Below are positions 28,296 to 55,776 of a stretch of DNA of 64,000 nucleotides, in pieces. The notes under the pieces are model-generated. The model worked only from the letters and a program-made list of their open reading frames with translations, searched no databases and had not been told where the DNA came from. The position numbers were made by a program, and so were the translations under genes. The DNA is taken from contig JASMCJ010000008.1 in NCBI GenBank assembly GCA_030753365.1, positions 928 through 64,927 on the forward strand, written 5' to 3'. This DNA comes from Candidatus Woesearchaeota archaeon (GTDB taxonomy: Archaea > Nanobdellota > Nanobdellia > Woesearchaeales > GCA-2687795). Every line of letters starts with the position of its first letter. Position 1 is the first letter of the stretch.

Positions 28296-28850
28296 TTATT
28301 CCTTACTATATAATCCTATAAGCGTTGCTTCTGCAAGTACATGGTCCTGCATGGCTCTTTTTATGTCACCTTTCTTTGATTTTTCTTCTATGCCTAATTT
28401 TGTGTCTAGTGCAAATAGCTTGAAAAAATACCTATGGGTTCCTGAAGGAGGACATGGCCCGCCATATTCATGCTTATTGAAGTCGTTTAAGCCTTGGACT
28501 GCTCCATTGGGAGCTTTGCCTTCTTCTATTTTTGAGATAAGAGGGATGTTCCATATAAGCCAATGGTCCCATGTTCCCATAGGGGCATCAGGATCATCTA
28601 CTATTAATAATAAGCTTTTTGTGTTTTCTGGTATTTCTTCTATGTTTAAAGGGGGGCTTATATCTTTTCCCTGACAGGTGTATTTAGAAGGTATTTTACC
28701 ATTGTTTTCAAAGGCTGGGCTTGTTATTTTTAGTTCTGACATTTTTTCCACCTTGTTTGTTGTTGATGATTGTTTTTGTGAACAGGATGCAAGTAGGAAT
28801 AGAGCAGTTAATATTAATGTTTTGGTGAAAGTAAGGTGGAATGGTTTCAT
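28296..28850 (-). CDS. YbhB/YbcL (PEBP/RKIP) family protein with lipoprotein-type signal peptide
   Basis: DPDAP..WDHWLIWNIP PEBP motifs; N-terminal hydrophobic segment ending LLASCS. Confidence 0.75.
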   Translation of the reverse strand: MKPFHLTFTKTLILTALFLLASCSQKQSSTTNKVEKMSELKITSPAFENNGKIPSKYTCQGKDISPPLNIEEIPENTKSLLLIVDDPDAPMGTWDHWLIWNIPLISKIEEGKAPNGAVQGLNDFNKHEYGGPCPPSGTHRYFFKLFALDTKLGIEEKSKKGDIKRAMQDHVLAEATLIGLYSKE

Positions 28851-28901: not shown

Positions 28902-29291
28902 ATGAAACAAAAGGTTCCCCCATCATTAAGGGTATGGTTCTTGATACATTTTGTTGTTGATATGCTGTTTGCAATACCTTTAATTATAAATCCTGTTTGG
29001 TTTCTTAGATTGGTAGGATTTGGTGTTGTTGAGCCGTTTGCAACGAGATTGGTGGGTGCTGCATTGATTGGTATTGGAGGGGTGTCGCTTGCTGCGCATA
29101 AGGCAGGAGTTGAAACTTTTAATTCATTGCTTACATTGAAAATTTTGTGGTCTTTTAGCGCTATGCTGGGAATAATATTAACTTTGATACAGGGAGGGTC
29201 AAAGGTTGGATGGTTTATATTAGCAATGTTCTTTGTGTTTTCAGGTGTGTGGGTTTATTATAAGAAAAGAATAAATAAAAAAATTAACTAA
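28902..29291 (+). CDS. Small membrane protein (hypothetical)
   Basis: 129 aa, 4 predicted TM helices. Confidence 0.35.
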   Translation: MKQKVPPSLRVWFLIHFVVDMLFAIPLIINPVWFLRLVGFGVVEPFATRLVGAALIGIGGVSLAAHKAGVETFNSLLTLKILWSFSAMLGIILTLIQGGSKVGWFILAMFFVFSGVWVYYKKRINKKIN

Positions 29292-29667
29292 CCCATAAAC
29301 CATGAATGTTGCAAAGTTCTCTTGCTGTTATCTCTTCTGTGTTTTCAATTGTGAATTCCGCTTCTGGCTTTTCTCCTGGATAAAGTCTTTTGCATCCAAT
29401 AACCTTCCCTGCCCTGGCTATTTGGATAAGTCCGATGTAATGGCTTTCTTCCATGGGATGTTCTACTTCGCCAACTTTTACTTTTACCTTATTCCCTTTT
29501 ATTTCAACTACTGGAACATGCTTTTCATTGCCTTCCTGTTCCTTTGATTTTTCTTCAAGCAGAATCATTTCACTGCCACAGCAGGATAAGGTTCCTCCAC
29601 CCGCATGAATTATTGAAATTATGTTTCCACAAAGTTTGCATTTGTATATTTCATCTGTTTTTACCAT
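29284..29667 (-). CDS. dfx: Desulfoferrodoxin (2Fe superoxide reductase)
   Basis: N-terminal desulforedoxin Cys4 (CKLCGN..SCC) and C-terminal SOR domain with the HVPV..H..C..H iron site; 127 aa. Confidence 0.85.
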   Translation of the reverse strand: MVKTDEIYKCKLCGNIISIIHAGGGTLSCCGSEMILLEEKSKEQEGNEKHVPVVEIKGNKVKVKVGEVEHPMEESHYIGLIQIARAGKVIGCKRLYPGEKPEAEFTIENTEEITARELCNIHGLWVS

Positions 29668-29669
29668 AT

Positions 29670-30578
29670 TTAATCACCTTTTTTTGAAGCTAAATATCTT
29701 GCTGCCTTGATTAGTGCCATGCAGCCCTGCCCTGCAGCAATTATGTATTGATATTCATGACCTGATGCGCAGTCGCCTGCTGCAAAGATGCCTGGGGTGG
29801 TTGTATGTCCCTGACAGTCTATCTGAATATGTTTATGTTCGTCAAGCTTGACTATGTTTTTGAATGGTTCTGTGCTGGGGACTCTTCCAATCTCTATTAT
29901 TATGCCTTTGACGTTTAGTTGTTTTTCCTTTCCAGTTTGGCTATATTTTATTCCTGTTACGAATTTATTGCCTAAGATTTCTTTGGTTTCTGTGTTGAGG
30001 ATGATTTCTACTTTAGGGTTTTTCTTTACTCTTTCCTGTAGATATTCATGAGCTTTGAATTCGCTATCACGTAGAATAAGATAGATTTTTGAGGCTATGT
30101 CTTTCATAAAATCAACAGCTTCAAGAGCTGCATCTCCCCCGCCTATTACTGCTACTTCTTTATCTGAGAATAAGGGACCATCACAGATTGCACAGTAGGT
30201 TACACCCTTGTTTGCAAATTTCTGCTCTCCCGGAATGTTGAGCTTTCTTGCATTTGAGCCGGTAGCTATGATAACTGTCTTTGTCTCATATTGTTCTTTG
30301 TTTGTGATTACAAGGAAGTTTGAGGCTTTCTTTTTTATGTTCTTTACGGTTTCTAGTGAGACATTCACATTGTTGAATTTTGCCTGTTTTTCAAGAATTG
30401 AGCTAAATCCTACCCCTGTTGTTTTGACTATGCCAGGATAGTTGAGTACTTCTCCGCTTACCATGAACTGGCCACCAAAGATTGAAGAAAGAATCTTATA
30501 GTTCATCCTCTTTCTTGAAGCATAGATTGCTGCGGTTAAGCCTGATATGCCTGCACCGATTATTGTTGTGTCGTACAA
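29670..30578 (-). CDS. trxB: Thioredoxin-disulfide reductase
   Basis: FAD site GAGISGLTAA, redox-active CAICDG, NAD(P) site AVIGGGDAALE; 302 aa. Confidence 0.85.
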   Translation of the reverse strand: MYDTTIIGAGISGLTAAIYASRKRMNYKILSSIFGGQFMVSGEVLNYPGIVKTTGVGFSSILEKQAKFNNVNVSLETVKNIKKKASNFLVITNKEQYETKTVIIATGSNARKLNIPGEQKFANKGVTYCAICDGPLFSDKEVAVIGGGDAALEAVDFMKDIASKIYLILRDSEFKAHEYLQERVKKNPKVEIILNTETKEILGNKFVTGIKYSQTGKEKQLNVKGIIIEIGRVPSTEPFKNIVKLDEHKHIQIDCQGHTTTPGIFAAGDCASGHEYQYIIAAGQGCMALIKAARYLASKKGD

Positions 30579-30647
30579 ATTAGTTGCCTCTTTTATTAGG
30601 GAATTTATGATTAGAAGTATATTAGTAGATATAGTATAATAAAGTTA

Positions 30648-30911
30648 TTATTTTAGCTTTGAAGAGCGGTTTTTGCCTCCTGTTTTGTAAGGAGTATATT
30701 CACCTTTGGCTTTTTGTGATGTTCGTTCCTCAGGCGTTTCTTCATAGATTTCCCTTTCATCATAGCCGCAGTTGTCACAGACAATGCATTTGATTTGCTG
30801 ATAGTCGACAAGCTTTATTTTGCTTGATTTGCATTTTGGGCAGAGTTTCATTTGATCCATGTTTAAAGAGATTATCCTTTTTATATTTATCCAAAAAATA
30901 ATTAACCCCAT
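30648..30911 (-). CDS. Small zinc-ribbon protein
   Basis: CPKC..CIVCDNCG four-Cys ribbon; 87 aa. Confidence 0.4.
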   Translation of the reverse strand: MGLIIFWINIKRIISLNMDQMKLCPKCKSSKIKLVDYQQIKCIVCDNCGYDEREIYEETPEERTSQKAKGEYTPYKTGGKNRSSKLK

Positions 30912-31285
30912 ATTCCAAGGATTATTCCAATTATTTCAACAATAACATATAACCAGATTATGTAAGCCATTACCCCTATTATTAACGTTATTAAAACAAA
31001 GTTGAGGATCTTTCTTCTTTTCTTCTTTAGTTCATCAATTGTGCAAACTTTCTCCTTCTTATAAATATACCAAAACAACGCACCAATTAAGAAAAATAAA
31101 GCAATTCCCCTAAACGCCCATTTATACTGGCCATATAATGTATTTGATAAAGAGGCTGCAAAGCTTACTGTGCTTATCCCCAGAAGAACTAACACAACAG
31201 GTGTAAAACAGCATAAACCTCCAATAAAGGCCCCAATAGGGATTATTTTCTTAAGAAAAGACTTTTGTTGTTTGCTCAGTTTCAT
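30902..31285 (-). CDS. MerT-like membrane protein with vicinal Cys pair in TM1
   Basis: IGGLCCFTPVVLVLLGIS resembles the MerT CC-GPLVLxALG first-helix motif; 127 aa, 3 TM. Confidence 0.5.
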   Translation of the reverse strand: MKLSKQQKSFLKKIIPIGAFIGGLCCFTPVVLVLLGISTVSFAASLSNTLYGQYKWAFRGIALFFLIGALFWYIYKKEKVCTIDELKKKRRKILNFVLITLIIGVMAYIIWLYVIVEIIGIILGIWG

Positions 31286-31288
31286 TTT

Positions 31289-31606
31289 CTATTCACTTAA
31301 GCAAAGCAGTATAGCCAAATCTTCTTCTGCTTTTAATGAATGAGGAGCATCTTTGGGCATAAAGATAAAAACGCCTGGCTCCATCTTAATATCTTTGTCA
31401 AATAATTTGAAGGTACCTTTACCTTGTAAGACCTGGACACAACCATTCTTTGTTGATGTGTGAGAATCTATATCTGTCCCTTTAGCTAAGCACATTAAAG
31501 TGTAGTTGAAGGTGTCAGATTTGGCTAGAACTTTACTAAAGACACCATCTTTAGGAAATTCCATCATTTCATTAAGGTTCTTAGAGAAACCTTTGTTTTC
31601 TTCCAT
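31289..31606 (-). CDS. Cupin-fold small protein
   Basis: 105 aa with a conserved-barrel pattern (GTD.DSHTS..G..VQVLQG, PKDAPH). Confidence 0.55.
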   Translation of the reverse strand: MEENKGFSKNLNEMMEFPKDGVFSKVLAKSDTFNYTLMCLAKGTDIDSHTSTKNGCVQVLQGKGTFKLFDKDIKMEPGVFIFMPKDAPHSLKAEEDLAILLCLSE

Positions 31607-31609
31607 TTT

Positions 31610-31843
31610 TTATATATTTAAGAGACTTTTAATCTTTTCAACATCAAAACCTACTACAATCTCTCCATCTATGTCTATTACAGGAACGCCCATTTGGCCG
31701 GATTTGTCTATCATCTCTTTGCTAGCCTTCTGATCTTTGCTTACATCAATGTTTTCGAAATCGATATTATGTTCTTTTAGGAATTCTTTTGCCTTTATGC
31801 AGAAAGGGCAGGTTGGTGTACTGTATACTTTTACTTTTGCCAT
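31610..31843 (-). CDS. Glutaredoxin / NrdH-like small redoxin
   Basis: CPFC active site in a 77 aa thioredoxin fold (VYSTPTCPFCIKAK..GVPVI). Confidence 0.8.
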   Translation of the reverse strand: MAKVKVYSTPTCPFCIKAKEFLKEHNIDFENIDVSKDQKASKEMIDKSGQMGVPVIDIDGEIVVGFDVEKIKSLLNI

Positions 31844-31920
31844 TTTTTGCCTCCTTGAATTCGTTTGTTTTTAGTGTATTATATTATATGTGGTTATAAT
31901 AACCTTTTGATTATAATAAT

Positions 31921-32018
31921 AAAAAATCCCAATCGCAGCAAGCTGCGGGGTATTTTTAGTATTTAGTTTGCGTATTAAGCCGATGCAAGCATCGGGGTAT
32001 AAAACCCAAACTAAATAA
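31921..32018. repeat. 99 nt structured repeat unit, identical to 10715..10813; serves as the terminator region of the pentapeptide gene
   Basis: 100% identity to copy at 10715. On the minus strand the HP1 hairpin is followed by ATTTTTT immediately 3' of the stop at 32019. Confidence 0.7.
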
Positions 32019-32684
32019 TTAATATCCTGCCTGATAATAATTGCTTGGTCCTAGCCCATTATTACCCAAGAGAGGTCTTAAAGGATCAAATCCTCCGTAA
32101 AACATATATCCTTTTGGTTTTCTGCTATTTTCCTTTGTTGGAATTCCAAAGTAATTTATATTTACAGCATAAAGATTAGCGCTTCCTGTTATATTTGCCT
32201 GTCCAATATTTTGAACTTTGTACATGTTAGAACCTGAAAGATTTGTTTGCGATAAATAAGATCCGCCAAGATTTGAATATGCAAGGTTCGAGTTAGATAA
32301 ATTAGCTCCTCTAAAATCAGAGTTGCTTAAATTAACTCCACTAAAATCAACGCCTGACAGGTTTTTATTCCTGAAATTTGCTCCTTTTAACTCAACCTTT
32401 TCTTCTCTTCTCCTTGAAATGAAGTTGTTCCACAATTCCTTGTTCTCTGTTATGAATGAAACTAAACTCTCTATATCTCCTTCATTAATAAGGCTGATAA
32501 GCTCAACCAATGACTGCTTTTCTGGAATATCATTAAAGTTTTTATTTTGTGCGGTACCTTCCTCAAAATAAACCTCTGAAGTTTCATTATTCTTCTGGTC
32601 TGTTCGTTTCTTCTTCAATTTCACATTTGCAAGAGCCATCTTTACAACCACATACTTTACAGACTTTTTTACCTGCAAAATCAA
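32019..32684 (-). CDS. Pentapeptide-repeat protein (start possibly at the internal Met at ~32639)
   Basis: Tandem A(D/N)LSxx pentapeptide repeats (GANFRNKNLSGVDFSGVNLSNSDFRGANLSNSNLAYSNL). Confidence 0.65.
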   Translation of the reverse strand: MILQVKKSVKYVVVKMALANVKLKKKRTDQKNNETSEVYFEEGTAQNKNFNDIPEKQSLVELISLINEGDIESLVSFITENKELWNNFISRRREEKVELKGANFRNKNLSGVDFSGVNLSNSDFRGANLSNSNLAYSNLGGSYLSQTNLSGSNMYKVQNIGQANITGSANLYAVNINYFGIPTKENSRKPKGYMFYGGFDPLRPLLGNNGLGPSNYYQAGY

Positions 32685-32720
32685 AACATTCTTTTGTTTC
32701 TTTCATTATTACTACCTTTT

Positions 32721-33284
32721 TTATATTTTCCCAACAAGCTCCAAACTGGGTTTTAATGTTTTTTCTCCAGGTTGCCAGTTCATTGGACAAACTTGCCCTT
32801 TGTGTTCCCTTATGAATTTTGCTGCATTGATTTTTCTTAGCAATTCGTTAATGCTTCTGCCTATATCGTTGTCATGGAATTCGAATGCTTTGATAATGCC
32901 TTCGGGATTGATGATAAATGTCGCCCTTAGTGATAAGCCTTCTTCTTCAATGTATGTGCCATAACTTTTGCTTACTTTTCCTGTAGGGTCGGCTAACATA
33001 GGAAATGTTATTTTTTTAATAGTTTCTGAGTTGTCATGCCATGCTTTGTGCACAAATACAGTGTCAGTGCTTATGCTGATTATTTCTGCACCTATTTCTT
33101 TTATTTTGTTATAATTATCTGCCAGTTCTCCAAGTTCTGTGGGGCAGACAAATGTAAAGTCTGCAGGGTAGAAAAAAAGTATGATCCATTTGCCTTTGTA
33201 ATCGCTTAAACTGATTTTTTTTGTTTCATTATTAATTAAAGCATCTGATGTAAAGTCTGGTGCTTTTTCGTTTATTGTTACCAT
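32721..33284 (-). CDS. Peroxiredoxin (AhpC/TSA family)
   Basis: Peroxidatic Cys motif FTFVCPTE; 187 aa. Confidence 0.85.
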   Translation of the reverse strand: MVTINEKAPDFTSDALINNETKKISLSDYKGKWIILFFYPADFTFVCPTELGELADNYNKIKEIGAEIISISTDTVFVHKAWHDNSETIKKITFPMLADPTGKVSKSYGTYIEEEGLSLRATFIINPEGIIKAFEFHDNDIGRSINELLRKINAAKFIREHKGQVCPMNWQPGEKTLKPSLELVGKI

Positions 33285-33891: not shown

Positions 33892-34464
33892 ATGACTAAT
33901 GACCCTGAAACGTTTATGAAACTGGAAGAATTTGATAAGAAGATACAGTTCTATGAGAAACTTGGGCTTGATAAGAGAGATAATGTTATACTTTCTATGG
34001 TTTCTAAAAATCCGAGAGTTTCGCAGGAAGAGATTGCAAAGAACATTAAGTTGAGCCAACCATCTGTTGGTGCAAGGATAAGGAAGCTTCAGCAGAAAGG
34101 AGTATTGCATAATGTTAATGGAGTTAATTTTAAGGTTGTAGACCTTAACTTAGCAAAAGTTGATGTTAATTCTACTGATACGAATGCTATAATAGAGGAG
34201 TTTAAGGATTGTCCCTTTTTTATTAATGCATTGATTACATCAGGAAGGCATAATCTTTGTTTGTTGTTTATGGCAACTGACCTTAAACGGCTGGAAGGGA
34301 TTGTGAATCATCATTTGAGAGGCAATCCTAAGGTTAAGGATGTTGAGATGAATATTGTTATTTCTACTGCAAAGGATTTGGTGCTGCCACTGAATATTGA
34401 TTATGAAAATAAAGAGCAAGCTGGTTGTAAACAGGATTGTAAAGATTGTGCTAATAAGTTTTGA
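33892..34464 (+). CDS. Lrp/AsnC-family transcriptional regulator (HTH plus RAM-like domain) with Cys-rich C-terminal tail. The start may be the downstream Met at ~33916.
   Basis: HTH region ILSMVSKNPRVSQEEIAKNIKLSQPSVGARIRKLQQKG, then a RAM-like domain. C-terminal CKQDCKDCANKF. Confidence 0.6.
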   Translation: MTNDPETFMKLEEFDKKIQFYEKLGLDKRDNVILSMVSKNPRVSQEEIAKNIKLSQPSVGARIRKLQQKGVLHNVNGVNFKVVDLNLAKVDVNSTDTNAIIEEFKDCPFFINALITSGRHNLCLLFMATDLKRLEGIVNHHLRGNPKVKDVEMNIVISTAKDLVLPLNIDYENKEQAGCKQDCKDCANKF

Positions 34465-34478
34465 GATTGTTAGTTAGT

Positions 34479-35951
34479 TTATTCTGAGAATACCTGCGCG
34501 CTGTATTTATAGATGTCAACGTTAGGAGATTTCCAACAGTCTTCTGGTGAGCCTTGTTTTAAGCATAGTCTTGATAAGAATCCTTCTTTGTCAGGCAATT
34601 GTTCCCAGACCTGAGGGAGATAGGTTGACTGCTTGTTGTTGTATACAATGATTACTCCATCTTCTAAAGGAGTTAGCTGGTCAAGGTATTCCTGCCAGTT
34701 GTTTGCTTTGATGAGAATTGGTATGTCCAAAACTGAAACTGTTATAGTGATTTTGTCTAGTTCATCTAGCTGGACTGGCTCAAACCTGGTATCTTTGGTG
34801 GCTGCGTTAATGGCATTATCTCTTACAGCAAGGTACATAGGCTGGACTGGCATAAGGCTGCCTATTGAACCTCTTAATATTCCATCTTTTTCTAAGCTGA
34901 CAAAAAGGCCTTTTTTTCTGAAAAGTTTTGGGAATGTAAAGATAAGCTTAGGCTCTAACATTTCATTATCTTTAACGTATAATTCAATGGTGTCTCTTGC
35001 TAAACTAAGCAGTAATGATTTTTCTGAATTACTTAAAGGAGTTTTGTTGTGAGCGACAACAGAACTGTAACCTACAACGCTTTCCTTGTTTCCTGTTGTG
35101 TCACCGCTATTTTTGTAATCAACCACACTGATGTCAAGATTTTTTTGGACGGCTAGCTGAAGGAATGCCAATAAGATGTTGTTGCCGTCAGTTATACATT
35201 GATTTATATTTTTATAGTTATAGGACATTAAAGAGCCTAAGCAGAACCCGTCAAGTTTAAGCGCTTCATTATAAGGATAGTAATGGGATAAGTCAATACT
35301 GAATACGTATAGTGTTTTTCCATCATCATATTCTAATAGTTTGTTTACAAATTCTTCAATTTGATTATCTGTTAATTTTCCCAAAATCATAGGGATGAGC
35401 TTAAAGTTAGGGTTTAATGCCTGGAGGAAGGGAAGCTCAACTTCTATCATTTGCATGTCATGCGCTCCTTCTACTGATTTGAATAAGCCGGATTTGGTGT
35501 TTAATAGTTCATAAGATGTTTTGGAAATTTCTGTTTCTCCAAGAGGAGTTTTATAGTGAGTATATTTGATTGGAAGGGATATGCCATTAAAGTTAATGTC
35601 GGAGTTATGGTTAGAGGCAATTACGAATACTCTTTCATATTGCCTGTCTAATTGTTTAAAGCTTTTAGCAGCTATTTCCCCTGAATATTGGTATCCGGCA
35701 TGAGGCACTATTATCGCATGGACTTCTTCTGATATAGTTTTTTCAGTATTGTCCAGAAAGGATTTGATCAGGCTGTAGAGTTCATTACTATTTTGAGGAT
35801 AGAATTGGCCTGCTGCTACTGGTTCTCTGACTGCTTTTTGCCTGGGTGCGCGGACTATTCCGCCTGTTATGCCACACCCTGAAATGAGTAAGAGGAGTAA
35901 GAGAATGGTGATTGTTAATGACTTTTTTTTATATAGCATAATTACCCCCAA
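34479..35951 (-). CDS. Fusion of MEMO1-family protein (AmmeMemoRadiSam system protein B-like) and AMMECR1 domain, with N-terminal lipoprotein-type signal peptide
   Basis: N-terminus ILLLLLLISGCGITGG. MEMO motif IIVPHAGYQYSG. AMMECR1 region GLFVSLEKDGILRGSIGSL, i.e. the conserved LRGCIG motif with Cys replaced by Ser. 490 aa. Confidence 0.7.
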   Translation of the reverse strand: MGVIMLYKKKSLTITILLLLLLISGCGITGGIVRAPRQKAVREPVAAGQFYPQNSNELYSLIKSFLDNTEKTISEEVHAIIVPHAGYQYSGEIAAKSFKQLDRQYERVFVIASNHNSDINFNGISLPIKYTHYKTPLGETEISKTSYELLNTKSGLFKSVEGAHDMQMIEVELPFLQALNPNFKLIPMILGKLTDNQIEEFVNKLLEYDDGKTLYVFSIDLSHYYPYNEALKLDGFCLGSLMSYNYKNINQCITDGNNILLAFLQLAVQKNLDISVVDYKNSGDTTGNKESVVGYSSVVAHNKTPLSNSEKSLLLSLARDTIELYVKDNEMLEPKLIFTFPKLFRKKGLFVSLEKDGILRGSIGSLMPVQPMYLAVRDNAINAATKDTRFEPVQLDELDKITITVSVLDIPILIKANNWQEYLDQLTPLEDGVIIVYNNKQSTYLPQVWEQLPDKEGFLSRLCLKQGSPEDCWKSPNVDIYKYSAQVFSE

Positions 35952-36089
35952 TACCTTTATACTGAATTTCCTTCTTTTTATATTTTGTGGAAATGGTTAT
36001 TGCAATTTCGACAGTTTAATAAATGAATTATGGTATGGAATAGATAAAAGGAGAAGTTAGGTTTTAGAAATGAGGTGAAATTGTAGGTT

Positions 36090-36845: not shown

Positions 36846-37091
36846 ATGTGCGGAAAATGTGGTGGTTTTTGTGTTATATCTGGAGTGGCAACATGGGGTT
36901 TCTTTGCTTTGTTGTTGAGTTTGTTGGGTGTTGGCAACGCTATGTTAAATGGGTTGTGGCTGACTATACTGATATTCTTGGCTTTTGTGTTCTGCCCTGT
37001 GCTGAATAAGAAGCTTGCAGAAAACTGTACGTGCGGTGTATGCAGTCCAAAAGCAGAAAAGCTTAAACCAAAGAAGGGAAAGAAGAAATAA
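36846..37091 (+). CDS. Small Cys-rich membrane protein
   Basis: 81 aa: MCGKCGGFC at the N-terminus, two TM helices, CTCGVCSP and a Lys-rich tail. Confidence 0.4.
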   Translation: MCGKCGGFCVISGVATWGFFALLLSLLGVGNAMLNGLWLTILIFLAFVFCPVLNKKLAENCTCGVCSPKAEKLKPKKGKKK

Positions 37092-37098
37092 AAATAGA

Positions 37099-39306
37099 CT
37101 ATAACCTTTTATGTTTGAGCAGTAAGGAGTTGCTTACAACGCTTACGCTGCTCATTGCCATTGCTGCTCCTGCAATTATAGGGGATAGGAGCCAGCCTGT
37201 GAAAGGGTAGAGGGCTCCTGCAGCTAACGGTATGCCTAAAGTATTATAGAATAATGCCCAGAACATGTTCTGCTTTATCTTTGACATTGTTAGTTTGCTT
37301 AATCTGATTGATCTTGGTACATCTAAGAGATCGTTTCTCATTAGTACAATGTTTCCTGTTTCCATAGCAACGTCTGTGCCAGATCCCATGGCGATGCCTA
37401 TGTCTGCCTGAGCTAGTGCTGGAGCATCGTTTATTCCATCACCTACCATAGCAACTTTTCCTTTCTTCTGAAGCTTTTTTACATATTTTGCTTTGTCTTC
37501 AGGTAAGACTTCTGCAAATACATGGTTTATGCCTGCCTGCTTGGCGATTGCATTGGCAGTTCTTTTATTGTCTCCGGTTATCATGTAAATAGAGATTTTC
37601 ATGTTTTGTAATTTTTTAACAGCAGCTTTGGATGTTTCTTTGATAGTGTCTGCTACTGTTATTATTCCAATAACTTTTTTTGAGTCTGAGAGGATCATAG
37701 CAGTTTTACCTTGTTCTTCAAGAGGTCCTATTTTGGATTTTAGTTTTTTTATGTTTATTTTGTTGTCTATCATTAACTTTGAATTGCCAAAGTAATACTG
37801 AGTTTTGTTTAGCTTGGCTTTTATGCCATGACCAGGGATTGCCCTGAATCCTTTAGGATTTCCTAAAGAAAGTTTGTTTTGTTTTGCTTTTTTTACAATT
37901 GCTTCTGCTAGTGGATGCTCAGAGTTTTTTTCTATGCTTGCTGCTAGTTGAAGCAATTTGTTTTCAGATTTGATGTTGATGGGAACTATGTCTGTTACTT
38001 CAGGCGTGCCTTTTGTTATTGTTCCTGTTTTATCGAAGATGATGGAGTTTAGCTTGTGTGCTGTTTCAAGGGCATCTCCTCCTTTGATGAGGATTCCTTT
38101 TTTAGCGCCTTTGCCTGTTCCTACCATTATGGCTGTGGGGGTTGCAAGGCCTAAAGCGCAGGGGCAAGCTATTACAAGGACAGAGACTGCAGCGATTAGA
38201 GCAAATTTTATGTCTTTTTCAAATAGAAAGAGCCAGGAAGAGAAGGTTAATATTGCAATGATTATTACGATTGGCACAAAATAAGAGGAGATTGTGTCGG
38301 CAAATCTCTGGATTGGAGCTTTCTTCCCCTGAGCTTCTTCTATGAGCTTTATTATTCTTGATAAAGTGGTGTTTTCTCCTACTTTTGTTGCCTTGAATTT
38401 AAAGCTACCCTGTTTGTTTATGGTGGCTCCGGTTACTATGTCACCTTCCTTCTTTTCAACTGGCATGCTTTCCCCGGTTACCATGCTTTCATCTATTGAT
38501 GAAGAGCCATCAGTTATTTTTCCGTCAACAGGGATTTTTTCTCCGGGTTTTACTAAGATTATATCTCCTTCAACAACATGGTCTATTTTTATTTTGATTT
38601 CTTTCCCATTTCGTATTACTGTTGCTGTTTTAGGAGATAAACCCATGAGCTTTTTTATTGCTTCAGAGGTTTTCCCTTTTGCTATGGCTTCAAGGAATTT
38701 TCCCATTATGACTAAGGTTATGAGGATTGCTGAGGTTTCAAAGTATTGGCCTAGTTCAGGGTTGAATAAGATAGCATATACGCTGAAGAAGTATGCAGCG
38801 CTTGTGCCTACTGCTATTAAAGTGTCCATGTTGGTTGTTTTGTTTTTTAATGCGTTCCATGCACCCCTATAGAATGACCAGCCTACTATGAACTGGACAG
38901 GTGTTGCTAAGAACCATAAAATATAATCTTGATAAGGAATTGTTATATCAAGCCACATGAAAACCATGCCGATTATGAAAGCAGGGATGGCGAAGAATAG
39001 GCTTAGAATGAATTTGTTTTTGAAAGTTTTTATTTCTTCTTTTTGCATTAGTTCATGTTTTTTTATGTTTTCTTCTTCTGAGCCTGGTGACGCTTTGTAG
39101 CCAGTGTTTTTGACTATGGTTATTAATTTTTTTTCTGAAATTAAAGTTTCATCATATAAGACAGAAGCATTGCTTGTAGAGAAGTTTACGTTGGCTTCTT
39201 TAACACCTTTAGACTTTGATAGGGATTTGTTGATTGTGACTGCGCAGGATGCGCATGTCATTCCAGCTATCTGAAGGTTTGTCTTTTTCATTTTTATTAC
39301 CTCCAT
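37099..39306 (-). CDS. copA: Copper-translocating P1B-type ATPase (CopA-like)
   Basis: N-terminal HMA domain GMTCASCAV, membrane CPC motif ([12 protein letters not shown]), DKTGTIT phosphorylation site, GDGINDAP hinge; 735 aa. Confidence 0.9.
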
Positions 39307-44737: not shown

Positions 44738-45409
44738 ATGAAAGAAGGTAAAAAGAATTATTTATGGGCAGGGGTCGTAGGAGGGTTTACTGCAACAACT
44801 TGTTGCATTGCTCCTATTATTCTTGTTTTGTTAGGCTTTGGAACAGCTGTTAGTATGGCAGTGATGCATCAATTCCATATAGTTAGTATTGTTTCAGGAA
44901 TTGTTCTTATGATACTGATAAGCCTATATCTTGTAAAACGTAAATCCGGAACTTGCAGTATTAATGCAGTTAAACAGAACTGGAAAAGTATTGTGATTGC
45001 AATAATAATCATGGGAGGATCATGGGCAGTCATTAATTATCTTGTTATTGCTCCAGTTGCAGCATCTGTGTATAATAAATTGCCTGTTGAGCAAAAGCCT
45101 TTAGGCAATCTTAAAGAGATGGCTGAATCTCATGGTATGCCTGAGATGGCTAATATTAAGGTTGAGCCTGAGCAGGAAGGAAAGAAATTGATTGTGTTAG
45201 AGATTGAGGGGGTATTCTGCGGCTCTTGCGGCCCTTCTATAGAGTATGATGTTAAAAGTGTTTTAGGGGTCTTGGAAGTAGAAACTTCAGGAACAACTAT
45301 GAGTGTTACATATGATTCTGATGTTACAAGCAAGGATGTGATTGTTGCGAGTATTCATGATCCTTATTCAGCTACAATTATTGAAGAAGAAAAATTATTA
45401 TCTAAGTGA
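44738..45409 (+). CDS. MerT-like membrane domain (vicinal CC) fused to a C-terminal heavy-metal-associated (HMA, MerP/CopZ-like) domain
   Basis: TM1 FTATTCCIAPIILVLLGFG (MerT-like CC motif); C-terminal IVLEIEGVFCGSCG HMA metal-binding motif; 223 aa. Confidence 0.6.
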   Translation: MKEGKKNYLWAGVVGGFTATTCCIAPIILVLLGFGTAVSMAVMHQFHIVSIVSGIVLMILISLYLVKRKSGTCSINAVKQNWKSIVIAIIIMGGSWAVINYLVIAPVAASVYNKLPVEQKPLGNLKEMAESHGMPEMANIKVEPEQEGKKLIVLEIEGVFCGSCGPSIEYDVKSVLGVLEVETSGTTMSVTYDSDVTSKDVIVASIHDPYSATIIEEEKLLSK

Positions 45410-45774
45410 GATGGTTAAAGATGAATATTAAACAAATATTAGGAATTGTTTTGATTTGTTCAGTCTTGGTTATGGTTGGATGCTCAAGCATTAATTATGA
45501 TAGTTTTGCACAATGCCTTACAGAGAAAGGTGTTAAGATGTATGGGGGATATTGGTGTCCGCATTGCGCTAACCAAAAGGATATGTTTGGAAATTCTTTT
45601 GGTTATGTGAATTATATTGAATGTTCGCTTCCTAATAGAGAAGGAAAAACAGAAATATGTATAGAAGAGGATATAAAAGTTTATCCTACATGGGAGTTTG
45701 CAGACGGAAGCAGGAAAGAAAGAGTACATTCATTGGAACAATTGAGCGCGTTTAGCGGATGTAGCATAGAATAA
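45406..45774 (+). CDS. Membrane-anchored/secreted thioredoxin-like protein (WCPHC active site)
   Basis: 122 aa; N-terminal hydrophobic anchor, WCPHC, thioredoxin-fold spacing. Confidence 0.7.
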   Translation: MRWLKMNIKQILGIVLICSVLVMVGCSSINYDSFAQCLTEKGVKMYGGYWCPHCANQKDMFGNSFGYVNYIECSLPNREGKTEICIEEDIKVYPTWEFADGSRKERVHSLEQLSAFSGCSIE

Positions 45775-54084: not shown

Positions 54085-55776
54085 ATGAATGTTAAGATTG
54101 AGGAGATAAAATCCTTAGAAGGCAGCGATGGCAGTAAAGGTTGGCCTGTAGCTGTTAAGGATAGAGTAGCTTATCATTGTTTTAAAGATGATGAAGGAAG
54201 TGATTGTCCTAATGTTGCGGTGACTTTCTTATGGACTATGAGGGATGCTGTTATTCCTAAGCTTGATAAGGAGAATCTTGCGATTGCTACTAACTTTTAT
54301 ACGCCATCAGGGCTTACTGGGATGTTGAGGAATATTTTAGGGAATCCTTACATAAGATATATTATATTGTTAGGAGAAGAGTATTCTTCTAAGTCTGGAG
54401 ATGGCACTGCCAAAAGTGAAGAAGGTGTTGAACTTACAAGTGCTAATGCACTAAGGGCTTTTTTTGAGAAAGGGATTGATGAGAACAGGAAGGTTCCAGG
54501 ATTTGAAAATGCTATTTATATTGATAAGAATATTCCTTCTGAAATGGTTATAAAGGTTAAAGATAATGTTAAACTTATTGATTTGAATAAGGATATGCCT
54601 GATGCAAGTTTTGAAGAGAAGGTGGAGAAAGCTAATGATTTGATTAGGATGCTTGAGAGAAAAGAGCCGTTTATTGATAAACCTTGCACTTTTGAGTATG
54701 AGAAGTCTAAGGTTTCTATGAATTATGAAGGAGGGCCTTTGGTTGTGCATGGGAATAGTATTCCAGAGATCTGGGTTGATGTTATTCATAATATTTACAG
54801 GTATGGAAGGGATAATCTGATGAATGCTGAGACTGACAGATGGGTTAAGGAGATTAATAATATGGTGGCTGTTATTCATGAGCCGCAGAATGTTGATTTA
54901 TCTTTTAATCCGTTTTTGGTTCCACTGACTGAAGAGAAGATCGAGGCTTATAAGAAAGAGATTTTGTCTCCTATATTGCCTGAAGGGAAGGCTTATACCT
55001 ATGGGAATAAGCTGAGGGCTTATTATTATCCTTCTGCTGAGGAGATTAAGGAGTTGGTTAACTCTAAAGAGTATAAGGATTTTGAGTTTGGAAAAGGAGT
55101 TCACCTTGATGCTAATGTTAGTTATAAGAAAGAATACTGTGAGATTGACCAGCTGCAGGATATGATTGAGGTGCTTAAGAGAGATCCTTATTCTAAGGCT
55201 GTTGTTGGGATTACATGGCATGCACAAGATGAGTTGATGAGGAAACATAAGAGCAGCCCATGCCTTGCTATGCTGCAAGCTATGATACAGGATGAGAAAT
55301 TAAATTTGTTTGTGTTTTTCAGGAGCCATGATATGACTCAAGGATGGCCAGAGAATGCTTATGGGTGTGCTGCAATACAGAAGAAGATTGCTGATGAAGT
55401 AGGGGTTGAGGCTGGTATCCTTACTATTGTTTCTGGGAGCGCGCAGATTTATAATCATTATTATCAGCAGATTGAGGATATGCTTGCTAAGCATAGGAAG
55501 CAGAAGATTGATTATAAAGATTCAAGAGGGAATTATGTTATTGAGGTTAAGGAAGGTAAGATTGTTGTTTGCCATGTTGATGGGCAGAGCAATCAGGAGC
55601 TTGAGAGGTTTGAAGGTGGTAGTGCATCTAGTGTTGGGTTGAAGATTTCTCATGCTGGGCAGATTCATAAGACTGACCATGCGATTTATTTAGGAAGAGA
55701 GTTGCAGAAGGCTGAGCATGCTTTGAAGTCAGGGAAGAAGTATGAGCAGGATGTTGAAATTATAAAAGAAAAATAA
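54085..55776 (+). CDS. Thymidylate-synthase-fold (ThyA family) protein with a ~200 aa N-terminal extension and insertions
   Basis: The C-terminal half aligns block-by-block with ThyA: DQLQDMIEVLKRDPYSKAVVGITWH, SPCLAMLQAMIQDEKLNLFVFFRSHD (PCH/QRSxD equivalents), GWPENAYGCAAI, GILTIVSGSAQIYNHY. 563 aa. Confidence 0.65.
   Translation: MNVKIEEIKSLEGSDGSKGWPVAVKDRVAYHCFKDDEGSDCPNVAVTFLWTMRDAVIPKLDKENLAIATNFYTPSGLTGMLRNILGNPYIRYIILLGEEYSSKSGDGTAKSEEGVELTSANALRAFFEKGIDENRKVPGFENAIYIDKNIPSEMVIKVKDNVKLIDLNKDMPDASFEEKVEKANDLIRMLERKEPFIDKPCTFEYEKSKVSMNYEGGPLVVHGNSIPEIWVDVIHNIYRYGRDNLMNAETDRWVKEINNMVAVIHEPQNVDLSFNPFLVPLTEEKIEAYKKEILSPILPEGKAYTYGNKLRAYYYPSAEEIKELVNSKEYKDFEFGKGVHLDANVSYKKEYCEIDQLQDMIEVLKRDPYSKAVVGITWHAQDELMRKHKSSPCLAMLQAMIQDEKLNLFVFFRSHDMTQGWPENAYGCAAIQKKIADEVGVEAGILTIVSGSAQIYNHYYQQIEDMLAKHRKQKIDYKDSRGNYVIEVKEGKIVVCHVDGQSNQELERFEGGSASSVGLKISHAGQIHKTDHAIYLGRELQKAEHALKSGKKYEQDVEIIKEK

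What the first reader, a model, noticed from the sequence alone, without database searches (positions are those of the whole stretch)
34479..35951. Secreted or lipoprotein-type fusion of MEMO1-like and AMMECR1 domains with LRGCIG changed to LRGSIG and no radical SAM partner nearby
AmmeMemoRadiSam components are normally cytoplasmic. They are encoded as separate AMMECR1, MEMO-like and radical SAM genes. Here the MEMO-like (VPHAGYQYSG) and AMMECR1 domains are fused behind a lipoprotein-type signal peptide (LLLISGCG). The conserved AMMECR1 Cys is replaced by Ser. The only radical SAM gene in the window (57486) is a different, B12-binding type 22 kb away. An extracytoplasmic location would be new for this family.
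Basis: partly seen in the sequence, partly recalled or inferred. Interest (0 to 1): 0.5.

Follow-up and report, generated by a model that had tools for sequence, protein, structure and literature searches.

The report
Exported cysteine-free Memo–AMMECR1 fusion lipoprotein
A marine DPANN archaeon encodes a surface-anchored fusion of two enigmatic, disease-linked enzyme domains (Memo and AMMECR1) that has lost both active-site cysteines and its usual partner genes; its relatives show that this whole enzyme system, including its radical SAM enzyme, has a widespread branch that carries export signals.

Summary
ORF 34479-35951 (-), probably starting at the ATG at 35939, encodes a lipobox signal peptide (MLYKKKSLTITILLLLLLISG|C), a Memo domain and an AMMECR1 domain with LRGSIG in place of LRGCIG. 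No AmmeMemoRadiSam-type radical SAM gene lies in the 64 kb.

- The fusion is common, and was noted in 2007.
- 107 of the 120 closest homologs also carry an N-terminal signal or anchor.
- In relatives 51-62% identical, a true TIGR04337 radical SAM gene sits next to the fusion and itself carries a twin-arginine (Tat) signal. So do 115 of its 120 closest homologs.
- These clusters also hold a polytopic "fused MFS/spermidine synthase" protein, often a NapH-like Fer4_5 protein, and in archaea TatA and TatC.

The window gene therefore belongs to a conserved branch of the system that is predicted to be exported. I found no description of this branch in the literature I could read.

Three things are particular to this marine Woesearchaeota lineage. 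All partner genes are absent locally. The Memo metal-ligand cysteine (human C244) is Asp. The AMMECR1 cysteine is Ser. The gene is under strong purifying selection (dN/dS about 0.08-0.09). Function and substrate remain inferred.

The parts
34479..35951 (-). Whole ORF: signal peptide + Memo (AmrB-like) + AMMECR1 (AmrA-like) fusion. 490 aa from the TTG; the likely true start is ATG 35939 (486 aa).
35877..35939 (-). Predicted Sec-type signal peptide MLYKKKSLTITILLLLLLISG: KKK n-region and Leu/Ile h-region.
   Evidence: The h-region varies while the lipobox is kept in orthologs L083 and L089. The AF2 model shows an isolated helix at residues 7-25 followed by a lower-confidence linker.
35874..35885 (-). 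Lipobox I-S-G-C. The Cys is residue 26 of the 490-aa ORF and would be the lipidated +1 residue.
   Evidence: Sequence. It matches the [L/V/I][A/S/T/V/I][G/A/S]C definition quoted in PMC12462473. Two other lipobox ORFs lie in the window.
35055..35822 (-). Memo / AmmeMemoRadiSam protein B domain (residues 44-299).
   Evidence: PF01875 at 145.6 bits and TIGR04336 at 191 bits. Foldseek to MEMO1 gives TM 0.80.
35184..35198 (-). CITDG. Asp255 occupies the position of the MEMO1 metal-ligand Cys244 (family consensus C-E-x-C-G).
34488..35006 (-). AMMECR1 / AmmeMemoRadiSam protein A domain (residues 316-488).
   Evidence: PF01871 at 144 bits and TIGR04335 at 175 bits. Foldseek to 1vaj gives TM 0.80.
34860..34877 (-). 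LRGSIG: the RGChG active-site motif with the predicted catalytic Cys replaced by Ser362.
35940..35990 (-). Upstream region with a GGGGT Shine-Dalgarno-like motif and an A/T-rich TATA-like box (AAAATATAAAAAG).
   Evidence: Read directly from the sequence. Inference only.

Best explanation
The gene encodes a Sec-exported, lipobox-anchored Memo-AMMECR1 fusion displayed on the outer face of the membrane of a marine Woesearchaeota (DPANN) cell.

It descends from a conserved export-signal-bearing branch of the AmmeMemoRadiSam system. In relatives that branch consists of:
- a Tat-signal radical SAM enzyme (TIGR04337);
- the signal-bearing Memo-AMMECR1 fusion;
- a roughly 700-aa polytopic "fused MFS/spermidine synthase" protein;
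- often a NapH-like Fer4_5 membrane iron-sulfur protein;
- in archaea, TatA and TatC.

In the window's lineage the fusion gene has been separated from all of these. It now lies in a metal and redox-stress neighbourhood (CopA, peroxiredoxin, thioredoxin reductase-like protein, desulfoferrodoxin). Both active-site thiols have been replaced by oxygen ligands: the Memo Cys244 equivalent is Asp and the AMMECR1 RGChG Cys is Ser. All other catalytic-site residues are kept.

Inferred mechanism: the two domains act together on an extracytoplasmic substrate, meaning an envelope, lipid or small-molecule substrate and not RNA. The Memo domain would use a His/His/Asp-type metal site and the AMMECR1 cleft a Ser hydroxyl.

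Shown: domain identity, the signal sequence, the residue replacements, purifying selection, the gene clusters in relatives and the local absence of partners.

Inferred: export itself, lipidation, the kind of substrate, and whether a radical SAM partner is encoded elsewhere in the genome.
For: Domains and fold.

Signal and lipobox. The lipobox is conserved in orthologs while the h-region drifts. Three lipobox ORFs lie in the 64 kb. Lipoproteins are reported as prevalent in DPANN archaea (PMC12462473).

Organism: exact protein matches to Candidatus Woesearchaeota MAG proteins and Tara contigs. Archaeal RadA and RLI are present.

The signal is a branch-wide trait: 107 of 120 homologs carry an N-terminal signal or anchor.

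Partner radical SAM genes in relatives are true TIGR04337 members (358-392 bits, cutoff 220) with [ST]RRxF[LI]K motifs. 115 of the 120 closest homologs carry the motif. The Pfam TAT_signal model hits the same N-terminal position in 5 of the 10 proteins scanned, at scores below its threshold.

Co-variation across loci:
- fusion signal against Tat-signal radical SAM: 14/5/1/20, p=7.5e-6;
- fusion signal against an MFS/SpeE-like neighbour: 24/5/2/31, p=3e-10.

Six-gene archaeal clusters occur in L001, L086 and L098/L099. A radical SAM gene next to a Fer4_5 gene also occurs in L100 and L101.

Local absence of the radical SAM, MFS/SpeE-like, TatA/TatC and Fer4_5 genes. The marine orthologs share this partner-less synteny.

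Residue replacements.

Purifying selection: dN/dS 0.078-0.094.
Against: - No signal-peptide or topology predictor (SignalP, LipoP, DeepTMHMM) was available. The calls rest on motif and hydropathy rules.
- Archaeal lipidation has been shown only in Haloferax.
- A radical SAM enzyme working outside the cytoplasm has, to my knowledge, no precedent. It would need SAM and a reductant there.
- The co-variation may reflect a single ancestral event and not repeated independent events.
- Omnitrophota loci (L021, L031) pair a signal-bearing fusion with a signal-less radical SAM enzyme.
- Only 64 kb of a roughly 1 Mb genome was seen, so loss of the partners is not shown.
- No biochemical function is known for any member of either family.
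Confidence: 0.7

Rival explanations
1. The complete exported system is still present, with the partners encoded elsewhere. The Tat-signal radical SAM, MFS/SpeE-like and Tat genes lie outside the 64-kb window, and the Ser/Asp fusion works with them exactly as in L001 and L086.
For: Ser-clade relatives L001 (62% identity) and L086 (51%) keep the radical SAM gene adjacent, so Ser/Asp is compatible with the partner. Other signal-bearing fusions also lack the radical SAM and MFS/SpeE-like neighbours within their sequenced flanks, for example L014 and L035. Strong purifying selection applies.
Against: No radical SAM, MFS/SpeE-like, TatA/TatC or Fer4_5 gene lies within about 34 kb on one side or about 28 kb on the other. 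None of the NCBI-sourced radical SAM hits I traced came from the assemblies that hold the window's proteins. This is a weak test, because only some of the best 120 hits were checked and the MAGs are incomplete.
Confidence: 0.45
2. Partner loss. The marine lineage has lost the oxygen-sensitive radical SAM enzyme and its accessory genes, and the thiol-free Memo-AMMECR1 carries out a radical-SAM-independent reaction. Eukaryotes likewise have MEMO1 and AMMECR1 without this radical SAM enzyme.
For: The partner-less synteny is conserved across orthologs with 81-91% nucleotide identity from several marine samples. Both thiols are replaced. The neighbourhood is rich in oxidative-stress genes: peroxiredoxin, thioredoxin reductase-like protein and desulfoferrodoxin.
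Against: The Ser/Asp state predates the separation, because L001 and L086 have it together with the radical SAM gene. Absence from the genome is not shown. The oxygen regime of the habitat is unknown; some of the Tara samples are mesopelagic.
Confidence: 0.35
3. The N-terminal helix is only a membrane anchor, or a mis-called start, and leaves both domains in the cytoplasm. That would be the canonical location.
For: No dedicated predictor was run. Several homologs have uncleaved-looking K/R-rich anchors and no lipobox. Four basic residues follow within 15 residues after the Cys.
Against: The KKK n-region precedes the h-region, which by the positive-inside rule places the C-terminus outside. A canonical lipobox follows the h-region directly. 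Bacterial homologs have textbook cleavable signals, for example ...VEHVEA|QQ in P0011 and LAGC in P0094. The partner radical SAM enzymes carry Tat signals, and TatA/TatC genes are clustered with them. Homologs without a signal start exactly at the conserved VRxP motif.
Confidence: 0.1
4. Inactive relic or pseudoenzyme. Loss of both catalytic cysteines and of the partner genes marks a decaying or purely structural surface protein.
For: Two predicted catalytic or metal-ligand cysteines are replaced, and His167 is Gln in the window. No partners lie nearby.
Against: dN/dS is 0.078-0.094. All other invariant residues are kept: H84, H115, E170, D220, H223, R360, G361, D387, R389, F390 and C463. Asp at the Memo site occurs in 39 of 121 sequences and is therefore a normal variant. 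The AF2 model is high-confidence.
Confidence: 0.07

Closest known systems
AmmeMemoRadiSam system proteins B and A (TIGR04336 / TIGR04335), fused form annotated by JGI as 'AmmeMemoRadiSam system protein B/AmmeMemoRadiSam system protein A'
   Same: Both domain models match above their cutoffs. The domain order is the same as in thousands of database fusions. Relatives are clustered with the TIGR04337 radical SAM enzyme.
   Different: No radical SAM gene lies within 64 kb. The protein has a lipobox signal. The RGChG Cys is Ser and the Memo Cys is Asp.
Human MEMO1 (PDB 3bcz, 7kq8 iron-bound, 7l5c copper-bound)
   Same: Same fold (Foldseek TM 0.80, 24-25% identity). The equivalents of His49, His81, Asp189 and His192 are conserved as H84, H115, D220 and H223.
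   Different: The metal-ligand Cys244 is Asp255 here. The protein has an export signal. It is fused to AMMECR1.
Archaeal AMMECR1 proteins PH0010 (1vaj), MM0484 (1zq7), ST0229 (1wsc)
   Same: Same two-RAGNYA-domain fold (TM 0.80 to 1vaj, 37% identity). The DxRa motif and the C-terminal Cys pair are conserved.
   Different: Those proteins are stand-alone chains with no signal peptide and carry LRGCIG; cytoplasmic location is my inference. The literature predicts an RNA base-modification role for AMMECR1 through the Cys (PMC2034487, PMC4075521). That role is hard to reconcile with an exported protein that has Ser.
Exported AmmeMemoRadiSam cluster seen here in relatives (Fer4_5, Tat-signal radical SAM, fused MFS/spermidine synthase, signal-bearing Memo-AMMECR1, TatC/TatA); I found no published name for it
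   Same: The window protein is 51-62% identical to the fusions in L086 and L001 and shares their lipobox, Ser and Asp states.
   Different: The window and its marine orthologs lack every other component locally.
Ser-type versus Cys-type sulfatases matured by radical SAM enzymes (AtsB / anSME); analogy from my own knowledge only
   Same: A conserved Cys that can be exchanged for Ser, in a protein family associated with a radical SAM enzyme, with the target protein exported.
   Different: There is no sequence or fold relationship. No evidence shows that the AMMECR1 Cys/Ser is a modification target. This was not tested.

Membership tests
Memo / AmmeMemoRadiSam system protein B (PF01875, TIGR04336) | Profile match above the curated cutoff | tested here: met
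   PF01875 145.6 bits (cutoff 27); TIGR04336 191 bits (cutoff 26)
Memo / AmmeMemoRadiSam system protein B (PF01875, TIGR04336) | LigB-like fold as in MEMO1 | tested here: met
   AF2 pLDDT 93.2; Foldseek to 7kq8/3bcz E about 1e-22, TM (target) 0.80
Memo / AmmeMemoRadiSam system protein B (PF01875, TIGR04336) | Metal-site residues equivalent to MEMO1 His49, His81, Asp189/His192 | tested here: met
   H84, H115, D220 and H223 are invariant in 121 sequences
Memo / AmmeMemoRadiSam system protein B (PF01875, TIGR04336) | Metal-ligand Cys equivalent to MEMO1 Cys244 | tested here: not met
   Asp255 (CITDG). The column holds C in 82 and D in 39 sequences. The equivalence is fixed by the profile alignment to 7kq8 (ICG) and to the C244S mutant 7m8h (ISG)
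AMMECR1 / AmmeMemoRadiSam system protein A (PF01871, TIGR04335) | Profile match above the curated cutoff | tested here: met
   PF01871 144.1 bits (cutoff 25); TIGR04335 175.4 bits (cutoff 99)
AMMECR1 / AmmeMemoRadiSam system protein A (PF01871, TIGR04335) | RGChG motif with the 'absolutely conserved' cysteine (PMC2034487) | tested here: not met
   LRGSIG. The column holds C in 111 and S in 10 sequences
AMMECR1 / AmmeMemoRadiSam system protein A (PF01871, TIGR04335) | DxRa motif | tested here: met
   D387-T-R389-F390; D, R and F are invariant
AmmeMemoRadiSam three-component system | Co-encoded TIGR04337 radical SAM enzyme | tested here: not met
   None in the 64-kb window. The rest of the genome could not be searched. 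Relatives L001 and L086 have it adjacent
Prokaryotic lipoprotein (lipobox) precursor | Positively charged n-region, hydrophobic h-region, then [LVI][ASTVI][GAS]C | tested here: met
   MLYKKK / SLTITILLLLLL / ISGC; conserved in L083 and L089
Prokaryotic lipoprotein (lipobox) precursor | Call by a trained predictor (SignalP 6 / LipoP) and actual lipidation | not testable with these tools
   No predictor is available. Archaeal lipidation enzymes AliA/AliB are known from Haloferax and reported as present in DPANN archaea (PMC12462473). They were not searched for in this genome.
Exported AmmeMemoRadiSam cluster (defined here from relatives) | Signal-bearing Memo-AMMECR1 fusion | tested here: met
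Exported AmmeMemoRadiSam cluster (defined here from relatives) | Neighbouring Tat-signal radical SAM, fused MFS/spermidine synthase (NF037959) and TatA/TatC genes | tested here: not met
   tblastn of the L001 and L086 components against the window at E<=1e-3 found only CopA

The most novel reading that the evidence does not exclude
The AmmeMemoRadiSam system has a whole extracytoplasmic branch. In it a radical SAM enzyme is exported folded by the Tat pathway and works outside the cytoplasm, together with a surface-anchored Memo-AMMECR1 fusion and a polytopic MFS/SpeE-like protein. A NapH-like Fer4_5 membrane protein may supply electrons. As far as I know this would be the first radical SAM chemistry outside the cytoplasm. 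It would also mean that the conserved job of the Memo/AMMECR1 pair concerns an envelope, lipid or small-molecule substrate and not RNA. On this reading the window's thiol-free, partner-less gene is a radical-SAM-independent derivative of that branch in a marine DPANN lineage.
Probability: 0.35. Interest if true: 0.85.

Novelty: new variant of a known kind. Interest (0 to 1): 0.6.

Why it matters
MEMO1 and AMMECR1 are conserved from archaea to humans and are linked to human disease, yet neither has an established biochemical function. The standing prediction for AMMECR1 is RNA base modification through its conserved cysteine (PMC2034487).

A large branch in which the Memo-AMMECR1 fusion carries a Sec or lipoprotein signal, and its radical SAM partner carries a Tat signal, restricts the possible substrates for that branch to things available outside the membrane. 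It also offers a concrete, testable gene set: the radical SAM enzyme, the fusion, the MFS/SpeE-like protein and the Fer4_5 protein.

If the Tat-signal radical SAM enzymes are truly exported, radical SAM chemistry would extend beyond the cytoplasm. That raises the question of how SAM and electrons reach the enzyme.

The window's own variant (Asp and Ser in place of the two cysteines, no partners, strong purifying selection) is a natural experiment on whether the thiols and the radical SAM enzyme are needed for the core reaction.

Tried and rejected
- Literature. "AmmeMemoRadiSam" occurs only in passing in 6 papers. No paper combines a Tat signal with this radical SAM family, and none combines spermidine synthase, Memo and AMMECR1. 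Burroughs et al. 2019 (PMC6664185), the most relevant comparative study, is not held. My novelty statement is limited by this.
- Radical SAM partner elsewhere in the same organism. I looked for exact-sequence clusters and contigs of ten candidate hits. None came from the assemblies that carry the window's proteins. This is inconclusive.
- Extending beyond the window ends. The terminal ORFs are not on record. The RLI contigs add only a MopE-like gene.
- Metagenome scan for close relatives. It gave a single locus, L089, with the same synteny.
- Topology of the MFS/SpeE-like protein. One member gave 7 TMs before the soluble domain, with loop charges that place the domain outside. A crude count over 24 orthologs gave mostly 6 or 7 TMs. 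The side the SpeE-like domain faces is left unresolved.
- Pfam TAT_signal model. It hits the right N-terminal positions but only below threshold (11-20 bits, cutoff 22.7). I rely on the motif census instead.
- CopA proximity as a functional link. CopA lies near the fusion in both the window and L001, and MEMO1 binds Cu or Fe. But CopA is not near the fusion in most loci, and the soft Cys ligand is replaced here. I treat the proximity as lineage synteny and not as evidence of function.
- rRNA, tRNA and Rfam scans of the window gave nothing relevant.
Full report
**1. The observation**

The minus-strand ORF 34479-35951 (490 aa from a TTG) is real. Its orthologs start four codons further in, at ATG 35939. 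That ATG is preceded by GGGGT and an A/T-rich TATA-like box, so the likely product is 486 aa.

The N-terminus reads MLYKKKSLTITILLLLLLISG|CGITGG. It has a basic n-region, a Leu/Ile h-region and a canonical lipobox, I-S-G-C.

The domains are unambiguous:
- Pfam Memo, residues 44-299, E=2e-42, and Pfam AMMECR1, residues 316-488, E=4e-42.
- NCBIfam TIGR04336 (191 bits) and TIGR04335 (175 bits), both above their cutoffs.
- An AlphaFold2 model built on 42 homologs has mean pLDDT 93.2. It shows an isolated N-terminal helix (residues 7-25), a lower-confidence linker and two well-defined domains.
- Foldseek matches human MEMO1 (TM 0.80) and Pyrococcus PH0010 AMMECR1 (TM 0.80).

LRGSIG lies at 34860-34877 and aligns with LRGCIG of PH0010.

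The only enzyme-sized ORF in the window with a CxxxCxxC motif is 57486-59249. It is a B12-binding radical SAM with weak, sub-threshold matches to HpnJ and TIGR04013 and no match to TIGR04337. All elements of the observation are therefore confirmed.

**2. The organism**

RadA, RLI/ABCE1 and DUF835 show that the organism is an archaeon. Exact matches of GatB, RLI and peroxiredoxin to GenBank MAG proteins (MDP7505896, MDP7505888, MDP7505922) and to Tara Oceans contigs identify a marine Candidatus Woesearchaeota, a DPANN archaeon.

Two further ORFs in the window have lipobox signals: a PEBP-family protein at 28296-28850 and an ORF at 45406-45774. A recent survey reports that lipoproteins are prevalent in DPANN archaea and mostly Sec-dependent (PMC12462473).

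**3. The fusion and the signal are not peculiar to this locus**

All 120 best homologs are Memo+AMMECR1 fusions of 425-549 aa. They come from Woesearchaeota, Nanoarchaeota, Altiarchaeota, Deltaproteobacteria, Patescibacteria and other groups. Some sources already name them "AmmeMemoRadiSam system protein B/A".

AMMECR1 fusions with the "ring-opening dioxygenase" were noted in 2007 (PMC2034487).

Of the 120 homologs, 107 carry an N-terminal hydrophobic segment and 18 of these have a lipobox. The signals include textbook bacterial Sec signals (P0011...VEHVEA|QQ) and lipoprotein signals (P0094, LAGC). Thirteen lack a signal and begin right at the conserved VRxP..AG.FYP motif.

**4. What the relatives show**

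In L001 (fusion P0005, 62% identical, LRGSIG), the gene directly upstream of the fusion is a radical SAM gene. Its N-terminus, cut by the contig end, reads ...KLTRREFIKKSFIGLSSLALG, a twin-arginine motif followed by a hydrophobic region.

In L086 (P0006, 51% identical, LRGSIG) the neighbouring radical SAM protein begins MPKKKTFFDKKISRREFIKKSVIVIGGVSLG.

These proteins, and those of Altiarchaeota and Acidobacteria loci, score 358-392 bits on TIGR04337 (cutoff 220). The model match starts only after the 50-70-residue extension.

Of the 120 closest homologs of the L086 enzyme, 115 have [ST]RR[EDQ]F[LIV]K followed by a hydrophobic stretch. Four of the exceptions look like truncated gene calls. One has a lipoprotein signal instead.

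Across the fetched loci, a signal on the fusion goes together with two other features:
- a Tat motif on the adjacent radical SAM enzyme (14/5/1/20, Fisher p=7.5e-6);
- a neighbouring roughly 700-aa polytopic protein that matches "fused MFS/spermidine synthase" NF037959 (24/5/2/31, p=3e-10).

At least two of the discordant cells in the first table are threshold artefacts: L001, and the L039 fusion signal at a hydropathy of 2.0.

Proteobacterial loci show the opposite state: a fusion of about 450 aa without a signal, a radical SAM enzyme without a Tat motif and no MFS/SpeE-like gene.

In archaeal loci, TatA and TatC lie in the cluster (L001, L003, L004, L006, L086, L098/L099). A NapH-like Fer4_5 membrane protein is adjacent or fused in L001, L086, L098/L099, L100 and L101.

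Caveats:
- The loci are not phylogenetically independent, so the pattern may go back to one or a few events.
- Omnitrophota loci (L021, L031) pair a signal-bearing fusion with a signal-less radical SAM enzyme. L042 has a radical SAM enzyme with an N-terminal TM segment.
- No trained signal predictor was available. The Pfam TAT_signal model hits the right position, but below its threshold.

**5. What is particular to the window**

tblastn with the L001 and L086 radical SAM, MFS/SpeE-like, Fer4_5, TatA and TatC proteins finds nothing in the 64 kb. Only the CopA-type ATPase is shared with L001, at 55% identity.

The closest relatives (L083-L085 with an 87% identical protein, L089 with 94%) have the same partner-less synteny. 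A 224-aa membrane protein is divergent upstream, and in L089 the match continues through the Lrp-family regulator that lies convergent downstream in the window.

The gene is under strong purifying selection, with dN/dS 0.078 against L089 and 0.094 against L083.

The AMMECR1 Cys-to-Ser change is shared by a small clade (P0001-P0008) and by P0103 (10 of 121 sequences). The Ser clade also has Asp where the family consensus has C-E-x-C-G. A profile alignment to wild-type MEMO1 (7kq8, TICGRHP) and to the C244S mutant (7m8h, TISGRHP) shows that this column is the MEMO1 metal ligand Cys244. The window has Asp255 there. Asp occupies this column in 39 of 121 sequences, and the Ser state is nested within the Asp group (9 D+S, 1 C+S, 30 D+C).

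The window also has Gln for the usually conserved His167. All other invariant residues are retained: H84, H115, E170, D220, H223, R360, G361, D387, R389, F390 and C463.

A Cys-to-Ser AMMECR1 has been reported before, in Vulcanisaeta (PMC4075521).

**6. Neighbourhood**

The gene sits among metal and redox functions:
- desulfoferrodoxin, 29284-29667;
- thioredoxin reductase-like protein, 29670-30578;
- MerT-like protein, 30902-31285;
- peroxiredoxin, 32721-33284;
- an Lrp/AsnC regulator with a C-terminal CKQDCKDC, 33892-34464;
- an 81-aa Cys-rich membrane protein, 36846-37091;
- a CopA-type ATPase, 37099-39306.

None of these is a conserved neighbour of the fusion across phyla, so I do not count them as parts of the system.

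**7. How it most likely works**

*Shown.* The protein has intact Memo and AMMECR1 folds behind a lipoprotein-type signal. It belongs to a branch whose other components carry export signals or are membrane proteins. It lacks both active-site thiols. It is maintained by selection without local partners.

*Inferred.* The protein is exported by Sec and lipid-anchored on the outer face of the membrane. There the Memo metal site (His/His/Asp plus Asp255) and the AMMECR1 cleft (Ser362, D387, R389) act on an extracytoplasmic substrate. For this branch an RNA substrate, as predicted in the literature for AMMECR1, is unlikely. An envelope, lipid or small-molecule substrate is more plausible.

*Speculative.*
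- In complete clusters, the Tat-exported radical SAM enzyme may be loaded with its clusters, and perhaps with SAM, before export.
- It may be reduced through the Fer4_5 membrane protein.
- The Cys/Ser residue could be a target of the PFL-activase-like radical SAM enzyme, by analogy with Cys-type and Ser-type sulfatases. This analogy comes from my own knowledge and was not tested.

Two readings remain open for the window's lineage: it keeps a radical SAM partner elsewhere in the genome (about 0.45), or it has lost it (about 0.35).

**8. Verdict**

The claim of uniqueness is not. The gene is a thiol-free, locally partner-less variant of a widespread branch of the AmmeMemoRadiSam system that carries export signals.

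The more interesting result is the branch itself, in particular Tat-signal radical SAM enzymes clustered with TatA/TatC, an MFS/SpeE-like protein and a NapH-like protein. I found no description of this in the literature I could search. I could not read the one paper most likely to contain it.

Noticed in passing
L001:1-1203, L086:6504-7712, L003:8830-9963, L004:1048-2244, L005:1522-2742, L019:8774-9946, L098:10001-11233; proteins P0136-P0255: TIGR04337 AmmeMemoRadiSam radical SAM enzymes carry a canonical twin-arginine signal ([ST]RRxF[LI]K plus an h-region), followed by a conserved APxxLWKWSKEAxxY extension. 115 of 120 closest homologs have it. To my knowledge a Tat-exported radical SAM enzyme has no precedent.
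   Followed up: partly
L098:9104-15996 (the same cluster in L099); L001:1-6459; L086:5065-11699: A conserved archaeal six-gene cluster: Fer4_5 (NapH-like), Tat-signal radical SAM, a roughly 715-aa fused MFS/spermidine-synthase-like protein, signal-bearing Memo-AMMECR1, TatC and TatA. The MFS/SpeE-like gene also accompanies signal-bearing fusions in Acidobacteria, Verrucomicrobia, Omnitrophota and Bacteroidota, but never the signal-less Proteobacterial type.
   Followed up: partly
L021:8796-9770 and L031:7626-8600 (Omnitrophota); L042:8779-9909: Exceptions to the co-variation. A signal-bearing fusion and an MFS/SpeE-like neighbour occur with a 324-aa radical SAM enzyme that has no N-terminal extension (L021, L031), or with one that has an N-terminal TM segment in place of a Tat motif (L042).
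   Followed up: no
window 29284-33284 and 36846-39306: A redox and metal-stress neighbourhood: desulfoferrodoxin, thioredoxin reductase-like protein, MerT-like protein, 2-Cys peroxiredoxin, an 81-aa Cys-rich membrane protein (MCGKCGGFC...CTCGVCSPK) and a CopA-type ATPase with an HMA domain. A CopA ortholog (55% identity) also lies near the fusion in L001.
   Followed up: partly
window 33892-34464 (+): An Lrp/AsnC-family regulator, convergent with the fusion gene, carrying an unusual C-terminal Cys cluster (GCKQDCKDCANKF). It may sense a metal or redox state.
   Followed up: no
window 83-2056 (+); L087:11655-14027: A large protein with MopE-type Cu-binding motifs (PF11617) at the start of the window. 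It is called as a 736-790-aa protein on related contigs.
   Followed up: no
window 28296-28850 (-) and 45406-45774 (+): Two more ORFs with lipobox-type signals (LLASC on a PEBP-family protein; MVGC on a 122-aa ORF). This suggests that the archaeon uses lipoprotein anchoring routinely.
   Followed up: partly
window 54085-55776 (+): A 563-aa ORF in which a methanogen-type thymidylate synthase match (TIGR03283, residues 220-462) is flanked by segments like MtrA and dihydropteroate synthase-like protein (residues 40-182 and 479-558). This is an unusual composite.
   Followed up: no
window 57486-59249 (+): A B12-binding radical SAM protein whose best family matches (HpnJ, TIGR04013; about 65 bits) lie far below every curated cutoff. 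Its subfamily is uncharacterized, and it is unrelated to the AmmeMemoRadiSam enzyme.
   Followed up: partly
window 1-64000: GC skew is positive in almost every 2-kb bin, up to 0.49, and the cumulative skew rises nearly monotonically across the whole window regardless of gene orientation.
   Followed up: no
P0103 (15-kb Tara/JGI contig): A second LRGSIG fusion. Its AMMECR1 domain resembles the Ser clade, but its Memo domain is of a different, eukaryote-like type (SSDFTHYGPNYGY insert) and keeps the Cys at the C244 position. This suggests domain shuffling or an independent change.
   Followed up: no
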